Part shown: piece by piece, positions 44,391-58,329 of the stretch
How the letters are laid out: each line of letters begins with the position of its first letter
Position numbering within the stretch: position 1 is the first letter of the stretch
Source of the DNA: the human T2T-CHM13v2.0 reference genome, Homo sapiens
Length of the DNA: 64,000 nucleotides
Strand: one strand, 5' to 3'
NCBI RefSeq assembly: GCF_009914755.1
Contig: NC_060947.1
Made by a program: the position numbers and the translations under genes
Notes under the pieces: model-generated
Told to the model about the DNA's origin: nothing
What the model saw: the letters and a program-made list of their open reading frames with translations, nothing else
The model's database searches: none

Positions 44391-44759
44391 TATAAATTAG
44401 ACTTTAGGGAAGGACAGGCAAGGAGGGATCTAGAGCTGGAGAACATGGCTAACCAGACACCAGGCAGATCAATGTTCGATCTGAGAGCTTTAGTTCAGTT
44501 TCTAGAACTTTGTCATCAGATTAGAGTAAGATTTTATGCTGAAGTATCTGACATGTTTAACCAGGACTACCAGAATACTCCGTATTATTTGGTAATGATT
44601 TTCTGGCCTTGCTGAGTTGAGGGGTAGGGTGAGAACTCAGCTCGTCCAGCTATAGAGAGAAGGAATCCAGAGGGGCAGAGCACTAGACACCTCGCCATCT
44701 TTGCAGCAGCCAAAATATTGGCAGGGACACTTCGATCCCCTCATATTTCTCATTCTCAA

Positions 44760-45105
44760 ATCACCTCATCCAAGCCGTCATGAACTTTTGCCTGAATTAT
44801 AGCATTGGCTTCCTAACCGGTGTTCCTGTTTCCACCTTTGCTTCCTTTCCTCCAAATCTCTTCTCAAAATGCACACATAGTAATCTTGCTAAGCAATGAT
44901 TCTCAGCCGATAACACACAGATTAGAATAACTTGAGGAAGTTTTAAAAATACCTTATTCCAAAAACTTGAATCAGACCCTTTGGTGTAACATTTTACTTC
45001 ATTGCTCATACCCTTTGGTATCTTTCTTTCTCACTCAGAGTAAAAGACAACTCCTTAGAAGGGTCTGTATAATCAGGTGGTTGCCTGTTTTTCTGACTTA
45101 ATCCC
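44760..45105 (+). mobile_element. L2 (left part; target of the HERV-H composite)
   Basis: tcactcagagtaaaagacaactcctt...; continues after 56785 as ctcctactttcctccgttctcactgtg. Confidence 0.65.
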
Positions 45106-45506
45106 TGTCAGACCTCTGAGCCCAAGCTAAGCCATCATATCCCCTGTGACATGCACATACACATCCAGATGGCCGGTGCCTGCCTTAACTGATGACATTC
45201 CACCACAAAAGAAATGAAAATGGCCTGTTCCTGCCTTAACTGATGACATTGTCTTGTGAAATTCCTTCTCCTGGCTCAAAAGCTCCCCTACTGAGCACCT
45301 TGTGACCCCCACTCTGCCCGCCAGAGAAAAACCCCCCTTTGACTGTAATTTTCCTTTATCTACCCAAATCCTATAAAATGGCCCCACCCTTATCTCCCTT
45401 CGTTGACTCTCTTTTTGGACTCAGCCCACCTGCACCCAGGTGATTAAAAGCTTTATTGCTCACACAAAGCCTGTTTGGTGGTCTCTTCACACGGACACGC
45501 ATGAGA
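45106..45506 (+). promoter_or_regulatory. LTR7 5' LTR of provirus A
   Basis: tgtcagacctctgagcccaagctaagcc start; TATA (tataaaa 45372-45378); ACAAAAGA at 45205-45212. Confidence 0.93.
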
Positions 45507-45508
45507 TT

Positions 45509-45526
45509 TGGTGCCGTGACTCAGAT
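45509..45526 (+). other. Primer-binding site, tRNA-His
   Basis: tggtgccgtgactcagat is complementary to the tRNA-His 3' end (one mismatch). Confidence 0.93.
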
Positions 45527-46109
45527 CAGGGGACCTCCCTTGGGAGATCAATCCCCTGTCCTCCTGCTCTTTGCTCTGTGAGAAAGATCCACCTACGACC
45601 TCAGGTCCTCAGACCGACCAACCCAAGAAACATCTCACCAATTTCAAATCCGGTAAGCGGCTTCTTTTTACTCTCTTCTCCAACCTCCCTCACTATCCCT
45701 CAACCTCTTTCTCCTTTCAATCTTGGCACCACACTTCAATCTCTCCATTCTCTTAATTTCAATTCCTTTCATTTTCTGGTAGAGACAAAGGAGACATGTT
45801 TTATCTGTGGACCCAAAACTCCAGCGCTGGTCACAGACTGGGAAGGCAGCCTTCCCTTGGTGTTTAGTCACTGCAGGGACACCTCTCTGATTATTCACCC
45901 ACGTTTCAGAGGTGTCAGACCACGCAGGGATGCCTGCCATGGTCCTTCACCCTTAGCAGCAAGTCCTGCTTTTCTAGGGGAAGGGGCAAGTACCCCAACC
46001 CCTTCTCTCCGTGTCTCTACCCCTTCTCTGCTTTTCTGGGGGAGGGGTAAGAACCCCCAACCCCTTCTCCTTCACCCTTAGTGGTAAGTCCCGCTTTTCT
46101 AGGGGGCAA

Positions 46110-46400
46110 GAATCCCTAATCCCTTATTTCCATGCCCCGACCTCTTATCTCTGCACCCCAATCCCTTATTTCCACACCCCGACCTCTTATCTCTGCACCC
46201 CAATCACTTATTTCCGTGCCCTGACCTCTTATCTCTGTGCCCTATCCCTTATTTCTGCACCCCAACCTCTTATCTCTGTGCCCAAATCCCTTATTTCCAT
46301 GCCCGGACCTCTTATCTCTGTGCCCCCATCCCTTATTTCCGTGCGCCAATCTCTTATGTCTGCACCCCAACACCTTATTTCTGTGCCCCAACCCCTTTCC
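46110..46400. repeat. Tandem repeat in the HERV-H leader (alternating cccttatttcc / cctcttatctctg units)
   Basis: Direct reading; a shorter counterpart lies in provirus B at 55310-55470. Confidence 0.85.
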
Positions 46401-47344
46401 CGCTTTTCTGGAGGGTAAGAACCCCCGAATCCCTTTCCTCCATGTCTCTACTCTCTTTTCTCTGGGCTTGCCTCCTTCACTATGGGCAACCTTCCACCCT
46501 CCATTCTTCCTTCTTCTCCCTTAGCCTGTGTTCTTAAGAACTTAAAACCTCTTCAACTCTCACCTGACCTAAAATCTAAGCATCTTATTTTCTTCTGCAA
46601 TGCTACTTGACCACAATACAAACTCGACAGTAGTTCCAAATAGCCAGAAAATGGCACTTTCAATTTTTCCATCCTGCAAGACCTAAATAATTCTTGTCGT
46701 AAAATAGGCAAACGGTTTGAGGTGCCTGATGTCCAGGCATTCTTTTACACATCGGTCCCTCCCTAGTCTCTGTGCCCAGTGCAACTCGTCCCAAATCTTC
46801 CTTCTTTCCCTTCTGCCTGTCCCCTCATTCCCAACCCCAACCATCACTGAGTCTTTCTAATCTTCCTTTTCTACAGAACCATCTGACCTCTCCCCTCCTC
46901 CCCAGGCTGCTCCTCGCCAGGCCGAGCTAGGTCCCAATTCTTCCTCAGCCTCTGCTCCTCCACCCTATAATCTTTTTATCACCTTCCCTCCTCACACACA
47001 GTCTGGTTTACAGTTTCATTCTGTGACTAGCCCTCTCCCACCTGCCCAGCAATTTCCTCTTAAAAAGGTGGCTGAAGCTAAAGGCATAGTCAAGGTTAAA
47101 TGCTCCTTTTTCTTTATCTGACCTCTCCCAAATCAGTTAGCATTTAGGCTCTTTCATCAAATATGAAAAACCCAGCCCAGTTCATGGCTCGTTCGGCAGC
47201 AACCCTGAGACGCTTTACAGCCCTAGACCCTAAAAATTCAAAAGGCCGTCTTATTCTCAATATACATTTTATTACCCAATCTGCTCCTGACATTAAATAA
47301 AACTCCAAAAATTAAATTCCAGCCCTCAAACCCCACAGCAGGAC

Positions 47345-49950
47345 TTAATTAACCTCACCTTCGAGGTGTGCAATAATAGAGTAGAGGCAGCCAAGTAGCG
47401 ACGTATTTCTGAGTTGCAATTCCTTGCCTCCACTGTGAGACAAACCCCAGCCACAGCTCCAGCACACAAGAACTCCAAACGCCTGAATCACAGCTGTCAG
47501 GGGTTCCTCCAGAACCTCCTTTCCCAGGAACTTGCTATAAGTACCTGAAATCTGGCCACTAGGCCAAGGAATGCCCAAAGCCCAAGATTCCTCCTAAGCC
47601 GTATCCCATACGTGTAGGACCCCACTGAAAATCAGACTGTTCAACTCACCAGGCCACTGGAACTCTGGCCCAAGGCTCTCTGACTGACTCCTTCCCAGAT
47701 CTTCTTGGCTTACCGGCTGAAGACTGACACTGCCCGATCACCTCGGAAGCCCCCAGACCATCACGGATGCCGAGCTTTGAGTAAATCTCACAGTAGAAAG
47801 TAAGTCCGTCCCCTTCTTAATCCATACGGAGGCTACCCACCCCACATTACCTTCTTTTCAAGGGCCTGTTCCTCTTGCTTCCATAACTGTTGTGGGTATT
47901 GACAGCCAGGTTTCTAAACCTCTTAAAACTCCCCAACTCTGGTGCCAACTTAGATAATACTCTTTTAAGCACTCCTTTTTAGTTATCCCCACCTGCCCAG
48001 TTCCCTTATTAGGCTGAGACACTTTAATTAAATTATCTGCTTCCCTGACTATTCCTAGGCTACAGCCACACCTCATTGCCACCTTTTCCCCCAGTTCAAA
48101 GCCTCCTTCACATCCTCCCCTTGTATCTCCCCACCTTAACCCACAAATATAAGACACCTCTACTCCCTCCTTAGCGACTGATCATGCACCCCTTACCATC
48201 CCATTAAAACCAAATCACTCTTACCCAGCTCAATGCCAAGATCCCATCCCACAGCATGCTTTGAAAGGATTAAAGCCTGTTATCACTCGCCTGTTACAGC
48301 ATGGCCTTTTAAAGCCTATAAACTCTTCTTACCATTCCCCCATTTTACCTGTCCTAAAACCAGACAAGGCTTACAGGTTAGTTCACGATCAGCACCTTAT
48401 CAACCAAATTGTTTTGCCTATCCACCCCATGGTGCCAAATCCATATACTCTCCTATCCTCAATACCTCCCTCTACAACCCATTATTCTGTTCTGGGTCTC
48501 AAACATGCCTTCTTTACTATTTGGACCCTTCATCCCAGCCTCTCTTTGCTTTCACTTAGACTGACCCTGACACCCATTAGGCTCAGCAAATTACCTGGGC
48601 TGTACTGCTGCAAGCCTTCACAGACAGCCCCCATTACTTCAGTCAAGCCCAAATTTCATCCCCATCTGTTACCTATCTCGGCATAATTCTCATAAAAACA
48701 CACGTGCTCTCCCAGCTGATCATGTCCAATTAATCTCCCAAACCTCAATCCCTTACAAAACAACAACGCCTTTCCTTCCTAGGCATGGTTAGTGTGGTCA
48801 GAATTCTTACACAAGAGCCAGGACCACACCCTGTAGCCTTTCTGTCCAAACAACTTGACCTTACTGTTTTAGCCTAGCCCTCATGTCTCCATGCAGCGGC
48901 TGCCGCTGTTTTAATACTTTTAGAGGCCCTAAAAAATCACAAACTATGCTCAACTGACTCTCTACATTTCTCATAACTTCCAAAATCTATTTTCTTCCTC
49001 ATATCTGACGCATATACTTTCTGCTCCCCGGCTCCTTCAGCTGTACTCACTCTTTGTTAAGTCCCACAATTACCATTGTTCCTGGCCCAGACTTCAATCT
49101 GACCTCCCACATTATTCTGGGTGCCACACCTGACCCTCATGACGGTATCTCTCTGATCCACCTGACATTCACCCCATTTCCCCATATTTCCTTCTTTCCT
49201 GTTCCTCACCCTGATCACGCTTGATTTATTGATGGCGGTTCCACCAGGCCTAATCACCACACACCAGCAAAGGCTGGTTATGCTATACTACAAGCCACTA
49301 GCCCGCCTCTTAGAACCTCTCATTTCCTTTCCATTGTGGAAATCTATCCTCAAGGAAATAACTTCTCAGTGTTCCATCTGCTATTCTACTACTCCTCAGG
49401 AATTATTCAGGCCCCCTCCCTTCCCTACACATCAAGCTTGAGGATTTGCCCCCACCCAGGACTGGCAAATTAGCTTTACTCAACATGCCCTGAGTCAGAT
49501 AACTAAAATACCTCTTAGTCTAGGTAGACACTTTCACTGGATAGGTAGAGGCCTTTCCTACAGGGTCTGAGAAGGCCACCGCAGTCATTTCTTCCCTTCT
49601 GTCAGACATAATTCCTCAGTTTAGCCTTCCCACCTCTATACAGTCTGATAACAGACCAGCCTTTATTAGTCAAATCAGCCAAGCAGTTTTTCAGGCTCTT
49701 AGTATTCAGTGAAACCTTTATATCCCTTACGGTCCTCTGTCTTCAAGAAACGTACAACAGACTAATGGTCTTTTAAAAACACACCTCACCAAGCTCAGCC
49801 ACCAACGTAAAAAGGACTGGATAATACTTTTACCACTTTCCCTTCTCAGAAGTCAGACCTGTCCTCAGAATGCTACAAGGTACAGCCCATTTGAGCTCCT
49901 GTATAGACGCTCCTTTTTATTAGGCCCCAGTCTCATTCCAGACACCAGAC
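47345..49950 (+). pseudogene. Provirus A gag-NC/pro/pol remnants, multiply disrupted
   Basis: ORF 48261-48686 LLKPINSSYHSPILPVLKPDKAYRLVHD...YSVLGLKHAFF (RT N-terminus); integrase-like gtagacactttcactgga. Confidence 0.85.
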
Positions 49951-52900
49951 TAACTTAGACTGTGCCCCAAAAAAACTTGTCATCCCTACTATCTTCTGTC
50001 TAGTCATACTCCTATTCACCATTCTCAACTACTCATACATGCCCTGCTCTTGTTTACACTGCCAGTTTACACTGTTTCTCCAAGCCGTCACAGCTGATAT
50101 CTCCTGGTGCTATCCCCAAACTGCCACTCTTAACTCTTGAAGTAAATAAATAATCTTTGCTGGCAGGACTATGCTGAATCTCCTTAGGCACTCTCTAATC
50201 AGATGTCCTGGGTCCTCCCAATTCTTAGATCTTTTATACCTGTTTTTCTCCTTCTCTTATTCCATTTACTTTTTCAATTCATACAAAACTGTATCCAGGC
50301 CATTACCAATAATTCTAAATGACAAATGTTTCTTCTAACAACCCCACAATATCACCCCTTACCAGAAAATCTTCCTTCAGCTTAATCTCTCCCACTCTAG
50401 GTTCCCACGCCGCCCCTAATCCCACTCGAAGGAGCCCTGAGAAACATCGCCCATTATCTCTCCATACCACCCCCCAAAATTTTCACTGTCCCAACACTTT
50501 ACCACTATTTCATTTTATTTTTCTTATTAATATAAGAAGACAGGAATGTCAGGCCTCTGAGCCCAAGCTAAGCCATCATATCCCCTGTGACCTGCACATA
50601 CACATCCAGATGGCAGGTTCCTCCCTTAACTGATGACATTCCACCACAAAAGAAGTGAAAATGGCCTGTTCCTGCCTTAACTGATGACATTGTCTCGTGG
50701 AATTCCTTCTCCTGGCTCATTCTGGCTCAAAAGCTCCCCCACTGAGTACCTTGTGACCCCCACTCCTGCCCGCCAGAGAACAACCCCCCTTTTCACCAAA
50801 TTTCATGCACATCCCTGTGAAGAGACCACCAAACAGGCTTTGTGTGAGCAATAAAGCTGTTTATTTAACCTGGGTGCAGGTGGGCTGAGTCCGAAAAGAG
50901 AGTCAGCGAAGGGAGATGGGGTGGGGCCGTTTTATAGGATTTGGGTAGGTAAAGGAAGAAGGGGGGTTGTTCTCTGGCAGGAGTGGGGGTCACAAGGTAC
51001 TCAGTGAGGGAGCTTTTGAGCCAGGATGAGCCAGGAGAAGGAATTTCACAAGACAATGTCATCAGTTAAGGCAGGAACAGGCCATTTTCACTTCTTTTGT
51101 GGTGGAATGTCATCAGTTAAGGCAGGCACCGGCCATCTGGATGTGTATCTGCAGGTCACAGGGGATATGATGGCTTAGCTTGGGCTCAGAGGCCTGACAT
51201 TCCTGTCTTCTTATATTAATAAGAAAAATAAAACGAAATAGTGGTAAAGTGTTGAGACGGTGAAAATGTTTTGGGGGTGGTATGGAGAGATAATGGGCGA
51301 TGTTTCTCAGGGCTGCTTGGAGCAGGATTAGGGGCGTCGTGGGAACCTAGAGTGGGAGAGATTAAGCTGAAGGAAGATTTTCTGGTAAGGGGTGATATTG
51401 TGGGGTTGTTAGAAGAAACATTTGTCATTCAGAATTACTGGTGATGGCCTGGATACAGTTTTGTATGAATTGAGAAACTAAACGGAATAAGAGAAGGAGA
51501 AAAACAGGTATTAAAGGACTAAGAATTGGGAGGACCCAGGACATCTGATTAGAGAGTGCCTAAGGAGATTCAGCATAGTCCTGCCAGCAAAGATTATTTA
51601 TTTACTTCAAGAGTTAAGAGTGGCAGTTTGGGGATAGCACCAGGAGATATCAGCTGTGACGGCTTGGAGAAACAGTGTAAACCGGCAGAGTAAAAAAGAG
51701 CAGGGCATGTATGATTAGTTGAGAATGGTGAATAGAAGTATGACTAGACAGAAGATAGTAGGGATGACAAGTTTTTTTGGGGCACAGTCTAAGTTAGTCT
51801 GGTGTCTGGAATGAGACTGGGGCCTAATAAAAAGGAGCGTCTATACAGGAGCTCAAATGGGCTGTACCTTGTAGCATTCTGAGGACAGGTCTGACTTCTG
51901 AGAAGGGAAAGTGGTAAAAGTATTGTCCAGTCCTTTCTAAGTTGGTGGCTGAGATTGGTGAGGTGTGTTTTTAAAAGACCTTTAGTCCGTTGTACTTTTC
52001 TTGAAGACAGAGGACTGTAAGGGATATAAAGGTTTCACTGAATACTAAGAGCCTGAAAAACTGCTTGGCTGATTTGACTAATAAAGGCTGGTCTGTTATC
52101 AGACTGTATAGAGGTGGGAAGGCTGAACTGAGGAATTATGTCTGACAGACGAGAAGAAATGACTGGTGACCATCTCAGACCCTGTAGGAAAGGCCTCTAC
52201 CTATCCAGTGAAAGTGTCTACCTAGACTAAGAGGTATTTTAGTTATCTGACTCAGGGCATGTTGAGTAAAGCTAATTTGCCAGTCCTGGGTGGGGGCAAA
52301 TCCTCGAGCTTGATGTGTAGGGAAGGGAGGGGGCCTGAATAATTCCTGAGGAGTAGTAGAATAGCAGATGGAACACTGAGAAGTTATTTCCTTGAGGATA
52401 GATTTCCACGATGGAAAGAAAATGAGAGGTTCTAAGAGGCGGGCTAGTGGCTTGTAGTATAGCATAGCCTACCTTTGCTGGTGTGTGGCGATTAGGTCCG
52501 GTGGAACCGCCATCAATAAATCAAGCGTGATCAGGGTGAGGAACAGGAAAGAAGGAAATATGGGGGAATGGGGTGAATGTCAGGTGGATCAGAGAGATAC
52601 CGTCATGAGGGTCAGGTGTGGTATCAGAAATAATGTGGGAGGCCGGATTGAAGTCTGGGCCAGGAACAATGGTAATTGTGGGACTTAACAAAGAGTGAGT
52701 ACAGCTGAAGGAGCCGGGGAGCAGAAAGTATATGCATCAGGTATGAGGAAGAAAATAGATTTTGGAAGTTATGAGAAATGTAGAGAGTGAGTTGAGCATA
52801 GTTTGTGATTTTGAGGGCCTCTAAAAATATTAGGGTGGCAGCAGCCACTGCATGGAGACATGAGGGCTAGGCTAAAACAGTAAGGTCAAGTTGTTTGGAC

Positions 52901-53184
52901 AGAAAGGCTACAGGGTGCAGTCCTGGCTCTTGTGTAAGAATTCTGACCGCACTAACCATGCCTACGAAGCAAAGGCATTGTTGTTTTGTAAGGGATTGAG
53001 GTTTGGGAGATTAATTGGACATGATCAGCAGGGAAAGCACGTGTGTTTTTATGAGAATTATGCCAAGATAGGTAACAGATGAGGATGAAATTTGGGCTTG
53101 ACTGAAGTAACGGGGGCTGTCTGTGAAGCCTTGTGGCAGTACAGCCCAGGTAATTTGTTGAGCCTAATGGGTGTCAGGGTCAGT

Positions 53185-53982
53185 CTAAGTGAAAGCAAAG
53201 AGAGGCTGGGACAAGGGGTGCAGGGGAATAGTGGAAAAAGCATCTTTAAGATCAAGCACGGAATAGTGAGTTGTGGAGGAAGGTATTGAGGACAAAAGAG
53301 TGTACGGGTTTGGCACCACAGGATGGATAGGCAAAACAATTTGGTTGATAAGGCGCAGATCCTGAACTAATCTGTAAGACTTGTCTGGTTTTTGGACAGG
53401 TAAAATGGGGGAATTGTACGGAGAGTTTATAGGTTTTAGAAGCCCATGCTGTAGCATGCAAGTGATAACAGGCTTTAATCCTTTCAAAGCGTGCTGTGGG
53501 ATGGGATATTGGCGCTGAGCGGGGTAAGGGTGATTAAGTTTTAATGGGATGGTAATGGGCATGTGATTGGTTGCCAGGGAAGGAGTAGAGATGTCCCATA
53601 CTTGTGGGTTAAGGTGGGGGGATATGAGAGGAAGAGGCGAAGGGGGCTTTGGACTGGGAAGAAGGGCGGCAATGAGACGTGGCTGTAGTCCAGGAATAGT
53701 CAGGGAAGCAGATAATTTGGTTAAAATATCTCGGCCTAATAAGGGAACTGGGCAGGTGGGGATGACTAAAAAAAAGTGCATAAAAGAGTGTTGTCCAAGT
53801 TCGCACCAGAGTGGGGGAGTTTTCAGCGGTTTAGAAGCCTGGCCGTCAATAGCCACAACAGTTATGGAGGCAAGGGAAACAGGCCCTTGAAAAGAAGGTA
53901 ATGTGGAGTGGGTAGCCTCCATATTGACTAGGGGGACGGACTTACCTTCCACTGTGAGAGTTACCTGAAGCTCGGCATCCAT
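53185..53982 (-). pseudogene. Provirus B protease plus RT N-terminus (265-aa open frame, catalytically defective)
   Basis: LVNMEATHSTL (degenerate DTGA), LLGRDIL, YRLVQDLRLIN, LDLKDAF; frame ends before any YXDD. Confidence 0.88.
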
Positions 53983-54122
53983 GATGGTCTACAGGGCTTC
54001 CAAGGTGATCGGGCAGCATCAGTCTTCAGCCGTTAATCCGAGAAGGCGTCAGTCAGAGAGCCTTGGGCCAGAGTTCCAGGGGCTCTAGGAGTGGCTGCCA
54101 GGTGAGTTGAACAGTCTGATTT

Positions 54123-54359
54123 TCAGTGGGGTCCCGCACAGATGCTACACGGCTTAGGAGGAATCCTGGGCTGCAGGCATTCCTTGGCCTGGTGGTCAGA
54201 TTTCTGGCACTTGTAGCAAGCTCCTGGGGGAGGAGGTTCTGGAGGAATGTCTGGCCGCTGCGGTTCAGGCATTTGGAAGTTCTTGTGTGCTGGAGATGTG
54301 GCTGGGGTTTGTCTCACAGTGGAGGCAAGGAATTGCAACTTTTTTCTATTATTGTACAC
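54123..54359 (-). pseudogene. Provirus B gag nucleocapsid remnant
   Basis: CYKCQKSDHQAKEC CCHC zinc knuckle plus a partial second knuckle CSICAGPH. Confidence 0.85.
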
Positions 54360-56478
54360 CTTGAAGGCGAGGTTAATTACATCCTGTTGTGGGGTTTGAG
54401 GGCTGGAATTTAATTTTTGGAGTTTTATTTAATGTCAGTAGCAGATTGGGTAATAAAATGTATTTTGAGAATAAGATGGCCTTTTGACCTTTTAGGGTCC
54501 AGGGCTGTAAAGCATCTCAGGGTTGCTGCCAAACGAGTCATGAACTGGGCTGGATTTTTATATTTGATGAAAAAGAGCCTAAACGCTATCTGATTTGGGA
54601 TAAAGAAAAAGGAGCATTAACCTTGACTATGCCTTTAGCTCCAGTCACCTTTTTAAGAGGAAATTGCTGAGCAGGTGGGGGAGGGCTAGTCATGGAACGA
54701 AACTGTAAGCCGCACCGGGTGTGAGGAGGGGAGGTGATAAAAGGATTATAGGGTGGAGGAGCAGAGGCTGAGGAAGAATCGGGACCTAGCTCAGCCTGGC
54801 CAGGAGGGGAGAGGTCAGATAGGTCTGTAGAAAAGGAAGATTAGAAAGACTCAGTGATGCTTGGGGTTGGGACTGAGGGGACAGGCAGAAGGGAAAGAAG
54901 GAAGATTTGGGATGAGTTGCATTGGGCACAGAGACTAGGAAGGGACCGATGTGTAAAAGAATGCCTGGACGTCAGGCACCTCAGACTGTTTGCCTGTTTT
55001 ATGACAAGAATTATTTAGGTCTTGCAGGATGGAAAAATTGAAAGCGCCATTTTCTGGCTATTTGGAACTACTGTCAAATTTGTATTGGGGTCAAGCAGCA
55101 TTGCAGAAGAAAATAAGATGCTTAGATTTTAGGTCAGGTGAGAGTTGAAGAGGTTTTAAGTTCTTAAGAACAGAGGCTAAGGGAGACGAAGGAGGAATGG
55201 AAGGTGGAAGGTTGCCCATAGTGAAGGAGGCAAGCCCAGAGAAAAGAGAGAGTAGAGACATGCAGGGAAGGGGTTCGGGGGTTCTTACCCTCCAGAAAAG
55301 TGGGAAAGGGGTCAGGGCACAGAGATACGAAGTCAGGGCGCATAAACAAGGGATTGGGGTGCAGAGATATGAGGTTGGGATGCAGAAATAAGGGATCGGG
55401 GCACAGAGATATAAGAGGTTGGGGCATGGAAATAAGGGATCGGGGTGCAGAGATATAAGGGGTTGGGGTAATTTCCCCTCCCCCAGAAAAGCGGGACTTG
55501 CTGCTAAGGGTGAAGGAGAAGGGGTTGGGGGTTTCTTGCCCCCCAGAAAGGCAGAGAAGGGGTAGAGACACGGAGAGAAGGGGTTGGGGTACTTGCCTCT
55601 TCCCCAGAAAAGCGGGACTTGCCGCTAAGGGTAAAGGACCAAGGTAGGCATCCCTGCATGGTCTGACACCTCTGAAACGTGGGTGAATAATCAGAGAGGT
55701 GTCCTGCAATGATTAAACACCAAGGGAAGTCTGCCTTCCCTAGTCCGTGACCGGCGCCGGAGTTTTGGGTCCACAGATAAAATGTGTCTCCTTTGTCTCT
55801 ACCAGAAAATGAAAGGAATTGAAATTAAAAGAAGGGAGAAATTGAAGTGTGGCACCAAGATTGAAAGGAGAAAGAGGTTGAGGGATAGTGAGGGAGGTTG
55901 GAGAAGAGAGTAAAAAGAGGCCACTTACCGGATTTGAAATTGGTGAGATGTTTCTTGGGCTGGTCAGTCTGAGGACCTGAGGTCGTAGGTGGATCTTTCT
56001 CACAGAGCAAAGAGCAGGAGGACAGGGGATTGATGTTCCCAAGGGAGGTCCCCTGATCCGAGTTACGGCATCAAATTTCATGTGCGCCTGTGTGAAGAGA
56101 CCACCAAACAGGCTTTGTGTGAGCAATAAAACTGTTTATTTCACCTGGGTGCAGGTGGGCTGAGTCTGAAAAGAGAGTCAGCGAAGGGAGATGGGGTGGG
56201 GCCATTTTATAGGATTTGGGTAGGTAAAGGAAGAAGGGGGGTTGTTCTCTGGTAGGCAGGAGTGGGGGTCACAAGGTACTCAGTGAGGGAGCTTTTGAGC
56301 CAGGTTGAGCCAGGAGTAGGAATTTCACAAGACAATGTCATCAGTTAAGGCAGGAACAGGCCATTTTCACTTCTTTTGTGGTGGAATGTCATCAGTTAAG
56401 GCAGGCACTGGCCATCTGGATGTGTATGTGCAGGTCACAGGGGATATGATGACTTAGCTTGGGCTCAGAGGCCTGACA

Positions 56479-56780
56479 AAGGGAGATAAGGGTGGGGCCA
56501 TTTTATAGGATTTGGGTAGATAAAGGAAAATTACAGTCAAAGGGGGGTTCTCTGGTGGGCAGAGTGGGGGTCACAAGGTGCTCAGTAGGGGAGCTTTTGA
56601 GCCAGGATGAGCCAGGAGAAGGAATTTCACAAGACAATTTCATCAGTTAAGGCAGGAAGAGGCCATTTTCACTTCTCTTGTGGTGGAATGTCATCAGTTA
56701 AGGCAGGAACCGGCCATCTGGATGTGTACATGCAGGTCACAGGGGATATGATGGCTTAGCTTGGGCTCAGAGGCCTGACA
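56479..56780 (-). mobile_element. Extra partial LTR7 (first 302 bp, U3 through TATA) directly upstream of the B 5' LTR
   Basis: Reverse complement tgtcaggcct...cctataaaatggccccacccttatctccctt, followed by TSD atccc at 56781-56785. Confidence 0.93.
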
Positions 56781-56785
56781 ATCCC

Positions 56786-57260
56786 CTCCTACTTTCCTCC
56801 GTTCTCACTGTGCCCAAAACACAGTGTTCTCTTTGCTCTTTTTTGAATGTGCCAAGTAAGCTTCTAATTTGGATACTTACTTTGCATTTATGTTCCTTCT
56901 GCTCACAGCACACTCTTCCAGACACATTCAACATTCACTTCCTTGCTTCCTACAGGTCTCTGCTTAGATGCAATTTCATCAGAAAGGCCTTCCATGCCTA
57001 GTCTATCTGGATTAACACGCTAGTCACTCTCTATTTCTCTACCATGCTTAATTTTTTTATGCACTATCACTACCCGATGTTACATTTTACATCAATTTGC
57101 TACTATTTCCCTCCACTGGAATGTAAGATCTATGAAGTCAGGAACTTTGTCTTGTTCATAACTATATCCTTAACTCCTAGAGCTGTATCTGGCACATAAT
57201 AGACACTCAATAGATATTTGCTGCTGGTTGATTGAGTGAATGCATGAATGGGTGAATCTG
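56786..57260 (+). mobile_element. L2 (right part, 3' end)
   Basis: aggtctctgcttagatgc...ctggaatgtaagatctatgaagtcagg...tggcacataatagacactcaata...tgaatg. Confidence 0.78.
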
Positions 57261-58329
57261 TGTTTCCACCTCCTAGGCTCTGAGTATATGGGGAAAGCCA
57301 GAGGGAGTTCCCAGGCTATGACAACGCATATTGAGCAGATGGCTGAGCAGAATTGGTGTGCAAGGTCTAAGCTCAGATCTCCATTAATTAATTGAAAATC
57401 CATTAATAATCATTATGCCCACATGGATTTTTCTTCAATGGTCATAGAATGGATCCTCAGCCTTCTTAAAGCCTGTTGATAGTACATAATCTGATAGGTA
57501 TTTGAAGGCTTTATGTAGAGTTTTGGAGTGGAGAGATTTCTGAGCTCAGCTCTGACAACATAGCAGATGGCCATGCACATTTGGTATCTGATAGTAATAC
57601 CACATTTGCATAAGTGCTGCATTTTCAAAGAATTTTTTTTTTTCGCTTTACAAAAGACTAGACTAGAAATGGTATATTATGGATTTCCCACTAGCCACTG
57701 AATGTGAATCCAGTTGGGTAATAGGTTAGGTGGCTCTATATTCTTCAGGTTTCTCCAGTAAAGCTTTGGGAAGTTGCCATGTGGGTCCAGGTGAATCTAG
57801 AACTAGCAAAGAGCTTCCCCAAACTGGCTATGCCCACTTGTCATCACTAGAGAGTGACAGAATTAGCCCTCATTGCTACTTTTTCTGCCTTTTTTCCACT
57901 CTATTCAACCTGACCCCCCTGGACAACTCACTTCATAAAACAATTCTGTCTTGAGCATTGCTGTTTCTATATATGTGCTTCTGGAATAGTCCCTGAAAAG
58001 AAAACTCTGTACTGTCTTCCCTGCCTGTTTGAATTCCATCTGCCATTAAGGGCCAGATCAAGTACTCTCCTTCCAGAAAGGTCTTATCTAACCATCCTAG
58101 ATCAAACTGATAGCCTCTGTGAACTCCAGCAGGCCCTGCCCATGCCATCAACCAAGCCCTTCAGTAGCTTTATCCTTGGGCATCATATTGGTTAGGAACA
58201 CAGGCTCTTGTCAAGACATACCTGGACTTCAATCTTGGCTCTGCCATTTCCTAGCTGCATGACCTTGGACAACTGACTTCACCTCCCAAACGATCTCACC
58301 TTAGTTGTGAAACTAAAATAGTCCTAGTA

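What the first reader, a model, noticed from the sequence alone, without database searches (positions are those of the whole stretch)
45372..56478. Predicted multi-kilobase hairpin dsRNA / convergent transcription unit
Seen: the A 3' LTR stops at nt 245, before TATA, R and the polyadenylation signal. Arm A (45106-50791) is reverse-complementary to 50959-56478 across a spacer of only about 167 bp (50792-50958). Both 5' LTRs keep a TATA box and point towards each other. Inference: RNA from LTR A cannot end normally and may read into antisense B, folding into an imperfect stem of about 5 kb. That would be a potential ADAR, Dicer or MDA5 substrate and a source of antisense RNA against the HERV-H family in pluripotent or germ cells. 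Caveat: an AATAAA on the plus strand in the spacer (50850-50855) could end the RNA before the stem forms.
Basis: partly seen in the sequence, partly recalled or inferred. Interest (0 to 1): 0.78.

Follow-up and report, generated by a model that had tools for sequence, protein, structure and literature searches.

The report
Two HERV-H proviruses joined tail-to-tail
Two different, dead HERV-H proviruses lie tail-to-tail on human Xq26.3 and probably entered the genome together; RNA crossing the junction would fold into a hairpin, but likely stop signals sit at the junction.

Summary
Window 45106-50793 (+) is reverse-complementary to 50955-56478: 5071 of 5481 aligned positions pair (92.5%), across a 161-nt loop. 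The central 1500 nt folds at -1269.8 kcal/mol, against -412 to -427 for shuffles.

The "spacer" is the rest of provirus B's complete 3' LTR.

The arms are not duplicates. Their internal identity (92.1%) is no higher than to unrelated HERV-H copies (88-94%).

The whole 11.7-kb pair has one 5-bp target-site duplication, ATCCC (45101-45105 and 56781-56785). The inner junction keeps TT plus 5 nt of primer-binding site after B's 3' LTR, the mark of an unprocessed retroviral cDNA end. The best reading is a single integration of joined cDNAs about 10-20 Mya.

Published H1 hESC tables list the two proviruses separately, as LTR7d1 and LTR7d2. Both carry NANOG, H3K4me3 and H3K27ac. A is in the top GRO-seq septile, and neither gives stable RNA.

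Poly(A) hexamers at 50850 and 51227 (+) and B's intact 3' LTR signal probably stop most RNA at the centre. A ~300-bp hairpin is more plausible than a 5-kb one. The dsRNA function is untested.

The parts
45101..45105 (.). Left copy of the 5-bp target-site duplication, ATCCC
   Evidence: It is identical to 56781-56785. All 7 comparator proviruses have 5-bp duplications.
45106..45506 (+). Provirus A 5' LTR (LTR7d1 in Carter 2022). TATAAAA at 45372, ATTAAA at 45443. It begins TGTCAGA and ends CATGAGA.
45507..50546 (+). Provirus A internal region. TT plus the primer-binding site lie at 45507-45526 and the leader splice-donor-like CCGGTAAG at about 45650. A 21-nt tandem repeat lies at 46077-46409. 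The polypurine tract ends at 50546. No open frame exceeds 224 aa.
50547..50793 (+). Provirus A 3' LTR, cut off at LTR nt 245-247. It has no TATA, R, poly(A) signal or U5.
50794..50800 (-). Seven nt that follow B's 3' LTR in B's sense: TT plus TGGTG. This is the unprocessed terminal dinucleotide plus the first 5 nt of the primer-binding site, a copy of the tRNA primer's 3' end.
   Evidence: The same 7 nt follow 7 of 7 comparator 5' LTRs and 0 of 7 comparator 3' LTRs.
50801..51199 (-). Provirus B 3' LTR, complete. TATAAAA at 50936-50930 and AATAAA starting at 50865 (- strand). Its promoter points into antisense A.
51200..56075 (-). Provirus B internal region. A 267-aa open frame at 53185-53988 carries protease and reverse-transcriptase remnants. 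The primer-binding site lies at 56073-56056.
56076..56478 (-). Provirus B 5' LTR (LTR7d2 in Carter 2022). TATAAAA at 56211-56205 and AATAAA at 56140.
56479..56780 (-). Extra U3-only LTR piece ('Bx'), 302 nt. It starts TGTCAGG and ends 29 nt after the first base of its TATA box (56507-56501). It abuts the first base of B's 5' LTR.
   Evidence: It is listed as a 307-bp 'solo' LTR7d2 in supplement 2 of Carter 2022.
56781..56785 (.). Right copy of the 5-bp target-site duplication, ATCCC
50794..50954 (+). Loop of the potential hairpin (161 nt). It is the antisense of LTR nt ~246 to the end of B's 3' LTR, plus the 7-nt footprint. It holds the + strand AATAAA at 50850-50855.
51227..51232 (+). Second + strand AATAAA after the junction, with the most G/U-rich downstream sequence of the 18 + strand hexamers listed. 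Use of this site would leave a stem of about 300 bp.

Best explanation
The feature is an 11.7-kb composite of two different, non-coding HERV-H proviruses lying tail-to-tail. A is on the + strand at 45106-50793, with its 3' LTR cut at nt 245-247. B is on the - strand at 50801-56478 and is complete. A U3-only LTR piece lies at 56479-56780.

Origin (inferred). The pair is not a duplication and is most likely not two separate insertions. It entered the germ line about 10-20 Mya as one integration. Two retroviral cDNAs, of the contemporaneous LTR7d1 and LTR7d2 lineages, were joined at their defective U5-side ends. One end was truncated. The other was unprocessed and still carried a copy of the tRNA primer's end. 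Integrase then inserted the composite through its two outward-facing U3 ends, which made a single 5-bp duplication.

Consequence. The sequence shows a DNA palindrome that could encode a hairpin with arms of up to about 5.5 kb (92.5% Watson-Crick). It has one promoter reading rightwards (A 5' LTR) and three reading leftwards (Bx, B 5' LTR, B 3' LTR).

Expected RNA (inferred). In pluripotent cells both outer LTRs are active at the chromatin and nascent-RNA level. Most RNA probably ends at the centre: + strand at the AATAAA at 50850 or 51227, - strand at B's own 3' LTR signal at 50865 or the next one at 50519. The main products would then be two convergent sense HERV-H RNAs. Minor read-through species would carry a terminal hairpin of about 300 bp, and progressively rarer ones would carry kilobase stems. 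A full 5-kb hairpin is a minor product at best.
For: Structure.

Two different proviruses:
- Internal identity of A to B is 92.1% (4835 columns). A to the 7 unrelated copies is 89.2-93.6%, and B to them is 88.2-93.9%.
- A to B is only 83-88% at 46.0-46.7 kb and 47.3-48.8 kb, where each arm matches other copies at 91-96%.
- Carter 2022 assigns A's 5' LTR to LTR7d1 and B's to LTR7d2.

Single integration:
- ATCCC flanks the composite exactly (45101-45105 and 56781-56785), a chance of 1 in 1024.
- 7 of 7 comparator proviruses have 5-bp duplications, 6 perfect and 1 with one mismatch.
- No other pairing of ends gives a duplication. B5..B3 gives CCCTT against TTTGG. Bx..B3 gives GGGAT against TTTGG. 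Both are 0 of 5.
- B's 3' LTR is followed by TTTGGTG, as are 7 of 7 comparator 5' LTRs and 0 of 7 comparator 3' LTRs.
- Many 5' LTR-PBS junctions elsewhere in the genome match 50794-50861, and their matches end exactly at 50794.
- Experimental precedent: abnormal HIV-1 and MLV 3' junctions keep the terminal dinucleotide plus 2-15 nt of primer-binding site, while the 5' junction is normal (Sakurai 2009, passages).
- Both inner junctions are unique among the scored genome candidates. Only the locus itself spans them: 1 of 70 matches and 1 of 40.
- LTR divergences are alike: B5-B3 K2P 0.041, A5-A3 0.053, A5-Bx 0.035, A3-B3 0.0385. They fit the 9-20 Mya wave given for 7d1/7d2.

RNA potential:
- MFE -1269.8 kcal/mol for 50126-51625, against -412 to -427 for 5 shuffles and -272.9 for a direct-repeat control.
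- The longest perfect helix is 188 bp, and 19 helices are 50 bp or longer.

Activity: H1 hESC calls of NANOG, H3K4me3 and H3K27ac at both proviruses, top GRO-seq septile for A and second for B, RNA.

Termination: hexamer scans.
Against: - The duplication is only 5 bp, and no empty or orthologous site could be examined. The flanks next to the insertion have no paralogue, and no other primate genome is held.
- The U3-only piece Bx is not explained by any standard reverse-transcription step.
- A's 5' and 3' LTRs differ at three linked diagnostic sites, where A3 carries the haplotype of B's LTRs and of L015. They are called 7d1 and 7d2 by Carter's remasking. This needs multi-template cDNA synthesis or later arm-to-arm gene conversion. 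Another chrX provirus in the same table shows such discordant calls too, so they may be noise.
- Whether an intasome used two U3 ends in vivo is inferred, not shown.
- Poly(A) site strength is judged only from hexamers and downstream G/U content.
- The GRO-seq calls use 8-kb windows that overlap both arms and are apparently unstranded. They cannot show direction or read-through.
- The RNA call is 0, so the locus may make no stable transcript at all.
Confidence: 0.6

Rival explanations
1. RNA from A's 5' LTR, lacking its own terminator, regularly reads through all of antisense B and folds into an imperfect stem of about 5 kb. That stem is a substrate for ADAR, Dicer or MDA5 and a source of antisense RNA against the HERV-H family.
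For: - A's 3' LTR lacks R and the poly(A) signal.
- The arms pair at 92.5% Watson-Crick, with perfect helices of up to 188 bp.
- The centre folds at -1269.8 kcal/mol.
- A is in the top GRO-seq septile yet has no stable RNA in H1. That is what a processed or hyper-edited RNA could look like.
- DICER catalytic mutants de-repress HERVH independently of miRNAs, and the dsRNA precursors are unknown (Nat Commun 2026, section 9).
- Inverted-repeat ERVs are validated MDA5 substrates.
Against: - Ten AATAAA/ATTAAA hexamers lie on the + strand path through antisense B. The first is 57 nt after the junction, and the second has strongly G/U-rich downstream sequence.
- Three LTR promoters fire against this RNA, so polymerase collision is expected.
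- LTR7d LTRs are weak promoters in iPSC reporter assays, and only 4% of non-7up loci show GRO-seq signal.
- The GRO-seq window is unstranded and overlaps B.
- Both leaders keep a splice-donor-like site, so mature RNA may lose most of an arm.
- No editing or small-RNA evidence was available.
Confidence: 0.1
2. Two independent insertions. B, or A, integrated into or next to the other provirus's 3' LTR. Later deletions and rearrangements produced the present junctions. The matching ATCCC and the 7-nt PBS-like stretch are coincidences.
For: - Nested ERV insertions are common (general knowledge).
- A and B are of different lineages.
- Bx and the discordant LTRs of A show that the locus has a history more complex than one clean event.
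Against: - It needs a 5/5 flank match (1 in 1024) and a 7/7 match to the post-LTR leader (1 in 16384) by chance.
- It also needs loss of the 154-156 remaining nt of A's 3' LTR and of B's own duplication, with no leftover.
- No alternative pairing of ends shows a duplication (0 of 5 matches).
- The right end of the composite is the precise first base of a U3 joined to the flank. That is what integrase makes, not what a random breakpoint gives.
Confidence: 0.25
3. A chromosomal inverted duplication (fold-back or template switch) of a single provirus. This would be a young palindrome like the ampliconic X/Y palindromes.
For: Mirror-image layout and a short central spacer. The 3' 1.5 kb of the arms is 96-97.6% alike and holds 6 of the 7 variants exclusive to A and B.
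Against: - The arms are no more alike (92.1%) than unrelated copies.
- They belong to different variants over about 2 kb, where identity is 83-88%.
- The flanks are not inverted copies of each other. Instead they carry a direct 5-bp repeat.
- B's 5' and 3' LTRs share a 10-nt deletion and an AAATAAAC-type R that A's 5' LTR lacks.
Confidence: 0.02

Closest known systems
Inverted-repeat ERVs (IR-ERVs) in the MRPL19 3'UTR, and IR-Alus: ADAR1-edited, MDA5-activating endogenous dsRNAs (Nat Genet 2025, PMC12695637; passages seen)
   Same: Two retroelement copies in opposite orientation that can pair within one transcript. The predicted stem is long and imperfect.
   Different: - Those repeats sit inside an expressed mRNA 3'UTR, and editing, MDA5 filaments and ISG induction were shown.
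- Here there is no host gene within 100 kb, co-transcription of both arms is unproven, and the arms are whole proviruses (5.5 kb, against about 0.3-1.5 kb).
- The promoters here are the elements' own, and they converge.
cis-natural antisense transcript pairs (convergent overlapping 3' ends, e.g. STUB1:JMJD8; same paper)
   Same: Convergent promoters whose RNAs could overlap at the centre.
   Different: The expected overlap, if both RNAs use the first signals (50850 + and 50865 -), is only a few tens of nt. The two RNAs are otherwise homologous rather than complementary.
Abnormal provirus-host junctions that keep the terminal dinucleotide and part of the primer-binding site (HIV-1 and MLV vectors in DSB-repair-deficient cells; Sakurai et al. 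2009, PMC2797772; passages seen)
   Same: The U5-side end carries TT plus 5 nt of primer-binding site, while the U3-side junction is normal.
   Different: Here the aberrant end is joined to another, truncated proviral genome rather than to host DNA. The event is an ancient germ-line one.
Ordinary HERV-H (LTR7d1/LTR7d2) proviruses, as catalogued by Carter et al. 2022 (PMC8912925)
   Same: LTR ends, primer-binding site, internally deleted non-coding structure of about 5.7 kb, age class, and NANOG/H3K27ac marks. Both arms are already listed there as separate entries.
   Different: - One duplication bounds both proviruses.
- A lacks the end of its 3' LTR.
- B has an extra U3.
- Both outer ends of the composite are U3 starts.
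- The catalogue lists three unrelated rows ('truncated', 'full', 'solo'). In the passages I saw, it does not note that they form one unit.
Large, highly homologous inverted repeats of the X chromosome (Warburton et al. 2004; seen only as a reference-list entry, content recalled)
   Same: An inverted repeat on the X chromosome with a short spacer.
   Different: Those arms are, as I recall, over 99% identical, maintained by gene conversion, and carry testis genes. Here the arms are 92.5% alike, of different origin, and non-coding.

Membership tests
HERV-H / LTR7 provirus | LTRs of about 400 nt that begin TGTCAGG and end CATGAAA, with a TATA box and a poly(A) hexamer | tested here: met
   All five LTR pieces align with the 13 LTRs of 7 comparator proviruses. 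40 of 40 scored genome hits to A's 5' LTR are 92-100% identical.
HERV-H / LTR7 provirus | A primer-binding site after the 5' LTR. That it matches tRNA-His is recalled, not tested. | tested here: met
   A and all 7 comparators have TTTGGTGCC/T... after the 5' LTR. B has the same with two changes. The tRNA identity itself was not tested.
HERV-H / LTR7 provirus | A 5-bp target-site duplication around each provirus | tested here: not met
   Neither A nor B has its own duplication. Only the composite does: ATCCC/ATCCC. 7 of 7 comparators have their own.
HERV-H / LTR7 provirus | Retroviral gag-pro-pol remnants | tested here: met
   Pfam RVP (E 9.7e-6) and RVT_1 (E 2.1e-8) in the open frame 53185-53988 (-). 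0 families in the 3 other frames tested.
LTR7 subfamilies of Carter et al. 2022 | Assignment by their phylogeny and remasking | tested here: met
   Supplements 1, 2, 4 and 5 give: A's 5' LTR 7d1, B's 5' LTR 7d2, Bx 7d2 'solo', and A's 3' half called 7d2. This is the paper's assignment. I did not recompute it.
Endogenous inverted-repeat dsRNA (ADAR1/MDA5 substrate class) | Extensive intramolecular base pairing of the two arms | tested here: met
   In silico only.
Endogenous inverted-repeat dsRNA (ADAR1/MDA5 substrate class) | Both arms present in one transcript | not testable with these tools
   Only unstranded septile calls of GRO-seq over 8-kb windows are available. Poly(A) hexamers argue against long read-through.
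Endogenous inverted-repeat dsRNA (ADAR1/MDA5 substrate class) | Clusters of A-to-I editing, or J2/MDA5 binding | not testable with these tools
   No RNA data are held.
Homogenised genomic palindromes (X/Y ampliconic type) | Arm-to-arm identity near 99% or above, from duplication and gene conversion (recalled criterion) | tested here: not met
   92.1-92.5% overall, and at most 97.6% in any 500-column window.
Aberrant retroviral cDNA end (unprocessed, PBS-retaining) | [quoted passage not shown] | tested here: met
   CATGAAA + TT + TGGTG at 50807->50794. The pattern is as described for HIV-1 and MLV.

The most novel reading that the evidence does not exclude
The composite is a natural, self-promoted proviral palindrome that is transcribed convergently in pluripotent and germ-line cells. 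Its read-through and overlapping RNAs form long dsRNA that is consumed by DICER or ADAR, which would explain nascent RNA without stable RNA in H1. It would then supply antisense 21-23-nt RNAs that restrain the HERV-H family in trans. That would make it one of the missing precursors for the miRNA-independent, DICER-dependent repression of HERVH reported in 2026. It would also be the first recognised fossil of a two-genome retroviral integration.
Probability: 0.06. Interest if true: 0.85.

Novelty: new variant of a known kind. Interest (0 to 1): 0.5.

Why it matters
There are two reasons.

1. **A molecular fossil.** One target-site duplication encloses two different proviral genomes, and the inner joint still bears the tRNA-primer footprint of an unprocessed cDNA end. 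If the ape orthologues confirm it, this is direct germ-line evidence for three things:
   - two HERV-H lineages (7d1 and 7d2) were co-packaged or co-resident in one pre-integration complex;
   - defective cDNA ends can be rescued by end-joining;
   - two U3 ends can then be used for integration.

   So far these are known only from cell-culture and in vitro systems. That in vitro integrase can use two like ends is my recollection. The five literature searches found no description of such a locus.

2. **A concrete, uniquely mappable test locus.** The arms differ by 261 mismatches and 32 indel blocks. The locus can therefore be used to ask whether full-length ERV palindromes make dsRNA in human pluripotent cells. 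That question is now pressing, because DICER catalytic mutants de-repress HERVH without a known dsRNA source.

If the RNA simply ends at the central poly(A) signals, the locus is an inert curiosity.

Tried and rejected
- **Inverted duplication of one provirus.** Rejected.
- **Paralogous 'empty site'.** I searched the genome with the 500 nt on each side. The DNA next to the insertion is unique. Only old-repeat matches were found, 180-260 nt and 320-470 nt away. No contiguity test was therefore possible.
- **A5 and Bx as mutual nearest relatives in the genome.** Not shown. Bx is 95-96% identical to 39 other scored LTR7 copies, and A5 does not rank among them, partly because of A5's 10-nt deletion. 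Among the five local LTR pieces, A5-Bx is the closest pair (K2P 0.035), but the differences are within noise.
- **A special A-B relationship in the 3' 1.6 kb.** Only weak evidence. A and B share 7 exclusive variants, 6 of them at 48768-50365. Other apparently unrelated pairs share 4-7, and two related comparator pairs share 24-26.
- **The 8-bp AAAAGAAG motif as a marker of active LTR7up.** It occurs once in these LTRs. The paper's alignments show that 7d LTRs have this single copy and lack the duplicated block 2b, so it is not diagnostic.
- **Rfam.** 0 families at gathering score in 44500-57500.
- **Literature searches.**
  - Locus names: 0 papers.
  - HERVH + inverted repeat/dsRNA/MDA5: 282 papers, 15 listed, 4 opened (and the failed). 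None mentions this locus.
  - Tail-to-tail proviruses and two-molecule/U3-end integration: I read only the listings, and no title or abstract start described a composite provirus within one duplication.
- **Rows left out.**
  - L012's 3' LTR was not picked up by my pattern, because its start is mutated. 5'-3' LTR distances therefore use 6 of 7 comparators.
  - L015's 3' flank was misprinted, because the pattern hit a later site. Its duplication GATAT is read.

Full report

- The repeat finder reports 44 inverted pairs between 44000 and 58000. The long ones tile 45106-50791 against 50959-56478 at 85-97% complementarity.
- blastn of the region on itself joins them into two alignments. One is 46259-50791 vs 55469-50959 (90.1% over 4584 columns, 124 gaps). 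The other is 45106-46250 vs 56478-55306 (88.1% over 1190 columns).
- GC skew flips sign at 50.5-51.0 kb.
- A global alignment of the arms (5688 and 5524 nt) gives 5481 aligned columns: 5071 Watson-Crick (92.5%), 149 G:U and 261 mismatches, plus 250 gap columns in 32 blocks. The longest perfect helix is 188 bp, 19 helices are 50 bp or longer, and 44 are 30 bp or longer.
The truncation of A's 3' LTR is at nt 245-247. TATA boxes lie at 45372 (+) and 56211-56205 (-). AATAAA lies at 50850 (+).

**2. Anatomy**. Read left to right:

| Window | Strand | Element |
|---|---|---|
| 45101-45105 | . | ATCCC |
| 45106-45506 | + | A 5' LTR |
| 45507-45526 | + | TT plus primer-binding site |
| to 50546 | + | A internal region |
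| 50547-50793 | + | A 3' LTR, ending CCCCCCTTTT |
| 50794-50800 | - | 7 nt, reading TT+TGGTG in B's sense |
| 51199->50801 | - | B 3' LTR, complete |
| 51200-56075 | - | B internal region |
| 56478->56076 | - | B 5' LTR |
| 56780->56479 | - | Bx, a 302-nt U3-only piece |
| 56781-56785 | . | ATCCC |

- Bx ends 29 nt after the first base of its TATA box and abuts base 1 of B's 5' LTR.
- Neither provirus is coding. Of the 9 open frames of 110 aa or more, the longest are 267 aa (B) and 224 aa (A).
- The 267-aa frame holds protease and reverse-transcriptase remnants. The 3 other frames tested match no Pfam family.
- Rfam finds nothing.

**3. Not a duplication.** I fetched 7 full HERV-H proviruses from the same genome.

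- Over the internal region, A and B are 92.1% identical in aligned columns. A is 89.2-93.6% identical to the seven, and B 88.2-93.9%.
- In 500-column windows, A to B drops to 83-88% at 46.0-46.7 kb and 47.3-48.8 kb, where each arm matches some other copy at 91-96%. It rises to 94.6-97.6% from 48.5 to 50.5 kb.
- B's two LTRs share a 10-nt deletion and an AAATAAAC-type R. A's 5' LTR has neither.
- Carter et al. 2022 list the arms separately. A is hg38 chrX:138258661-138264347 (LTR7d1). B is 138264358-138270033 (LTR7d2). Bx is 138270032-138270334 ('solo' LTR7d2) (supplement passages).
- The offset from window to hg38 is the same at both ends of the composite, so hg38 and this assembly agree on the structure.

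**4. How it arose.**

- All 7 comparators begin TGTCAGG (one reads TATCAGG) and end CATGAAA. All have a 5-bp target-site duplication, 6 perfect and 1 with one mismatch. All have TTTGGTG after the 5' LTR, and none has it after the 3' LTR.
- At this locus neither provirus has its own duplication (0 of 5 matches for either definition of B). The composite has a perfect one, ATCCC.
- Both outer ends of the composite are first bases of a U3.
- B's 3' LTR is followed by TTTGGTG and then, directly, by the reverse complement of A's 3' LTR at nt 247.
- On the + strand the joint reads A3...TTTT|CACCA|AA|TTTCATG.... This is the last five bases of the tRNA primer in DNA form, the two bases that integrase normally removes, and then B's minus-strand DNA.
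- A genome search with 50732-50861 shows many 5' LTR-PBS junctions whose match ends exactly at 50794. Only the locus itself spans the joint. The Bx|B5 joint is likewise unique.
- Sakurai et al. 2009 describe exactly this signature in HIV-1 and MLV vectors. The terminal dinucleotide plus 2-15 nt of primer-binding site is kept at the 3' junction, while the 5' junction is normal (passages).
- I infer that the A-B joint was made between unintegrated cDNA ends, one truncated and one unprocessed. Integrase then inserted the composite through two U3 ends.
- Chance would need both a 1-in-1024 and a 1-in-16384 match.
- LTR divergences are similar for all candidate 'sister' pairs: B5-B3 0.041, A5-Bx 0.035, A3-B3 0.0385, A5-A3 0.053. 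Comparators give 0.015-0.061. At a recalled neutral rate of about 1.1e-9 per site per year, this is roughly 15-20 My, within the 9-20 Mya wave given for 7d1/7d2.

Two points are unexplained. The first is the origin of Bx. The second is why A's 3' LTR carries the haplotype of B's LTRs at three linked sites while A's 5' LTR does not. Either multi-template reverse transcription or early arm-to-arm gene conversion would do. Six of the 7 variants exclusive to A and B lie at 48768-50365, which is weak support for either.

**5. Hairpin potential.**

- The central 1500 nt (50126-51625) fold into one almost uninterrupted stem at -1269.8 kcal/mol.
- Five shuffles give -412 to -427 kcal/mol. Turning the right arm round (direct repeat) gives -272.9.
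- Pairing is best next to the loop, 0.94-0.98 of columns from 48.6 kb inward. It is worst at the 21-nt tandem repeat, 0.70 at 46.1-46.6 kb.

**6. Would the RNA be made?**

- *Promoters.* One TATA box reads rightwards (45372). Three read leftwards (Bx, B5, B3). B's 3' LTR promoter at 50936-50930 points straight into antisense A.
- *Terminators on the + strand.* After the junction come 10 hexamers. AATAAA at 50850 has G/U-rich downstream sequence. AATAAA at 51227 has the richest of all. Ending there would leave stems of 0 and about 300 nt. Later sites would leave about 0.6, 0.9, 1.15, 1.6, 3.5 and 4.8-5.2 kb.
- *Terminators on the - strand.* B's own signal is at 50865, and the next is at 50519.
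- *Splicing.* Both leaders keep a splice-donor-like CCGGTAAG.
- *Published H1 hESC calls (Carter 2022, supplement 1).* A: RNA 0, top-septile GRO-seq 1, NANOG 1, ZNF534 1, H3K4me3 1, H3K27ac 1. B: RNA 0, GRO-seq second septile, NANOG 1, H3K4me3 1, H3K27ac 1.
- *Limits of those calls.* Only 4% of non-7up loci show GRO-seq signal. The windows run 8 kb downstream of each 5' LTR and so overlap the other arm, and strandedness is not stated.

The locus is therefore chromatin-active, with nascent RNA but no stable RNA. That is compatible with early termination and decay, with dsRNA processing, or with weak promoters. My estimates:

| Outcome in hESC | Estimate |
|---|---|
| Some hairpin or overlap dsRNA of 250 bp or more | about 40% |
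| A multi-kilobase hairpin as a regular product | about 10% |

**7. Comparison with what is known.**

- As dsRNA, it would belong with inverted-repeat ERVs and Alus and with cis-NATs, which are established ADAR1/MDA5 substrates. It differs in arm length, in having its own convergent promoters, and in lacking a host gene.
- As DNA, it fails the test for homogenised palindromes.
- As an insertion, it combines a known aberration (a PBS-retaining end) with an arrangement that my searches did not find described: two genomes within one duplication.
It gives no evidence for this locus.

**8. Verdict.**

- The more solid and newer result is the origin of the composite.
- Interest is moderate (0.5). 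It would rise sharply if stranded RNA data showed read-through, or if ape orthologues confirmed the one-event origin.

Noticed in passing
window 56479-56780 (-): A U3-only LTR copy with its own TATA box (56507-56501) ends where the cap site is expected and abuts base 1 of B's 5' LTR. A transcript from it would begin with a whole LTR and meet B5's AATAAA (56140) about 340 nt later. Carter 2022 lists it as a 307-bp 'solo' LTR7d2. No standard reverse-transcription step explains it.
   Followed up: partly
window 50801-51199 (-), TATA at 50936-50930: B's complete 3' LTR is a potential promoter that reads directly into antisense A. Its own AATAAA lies only about 40 nt from the expected start. The RefSeq enhancer and silencer features given by the hub (50387-51804) sit on this junction.
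   Followed up: partly
window 46077-46409 (+) and 55306-55469 (-): A 21-nt tandem repeat in the gag-leader region has different copy numbers in the two arms. It causes the worst-paired stretch of the potential stem (0.70 of columns paired).
   Followed up: partly
window 45256 region; L011 5' LTR: A's 5' LTR lacks 10 nt of a short tandem duplication (TCCTGGCTCA twice). The same loss is seen in the 5' LTR of comparator L011 but not in its 3' LTR, so this indel recurs and is not a lineage marker.
   Followed up: partly
Carter 2022 supplement 2 (hg38 chrX:16044720-16050413): Another chrX provirus is also called LTR7d1 for one LTR-plus-internal half and LTR7d2 for the other. Discordant 7d1/7d2 calls within one provirus are therefore not unique to arm A and may partly be classification noise.
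   Followed up: no
window 45437-45506 (+) vs 50801-50870 (+): Even an RNA ending at the first + strand poly(A) site would carry, at its 3' end, the antisense of U5. That stretch is complementary to the U5 at its own 5' end, giving a possible panhandle of about 70 nt.
   Followed up: no
window 57100-57260 and 44790-44870: Short stretches of the flanks match many places in the genome at 70-90% (old interspersed repeats). The DNA directly next to the insertion is single-copy.
   Followed up: partly
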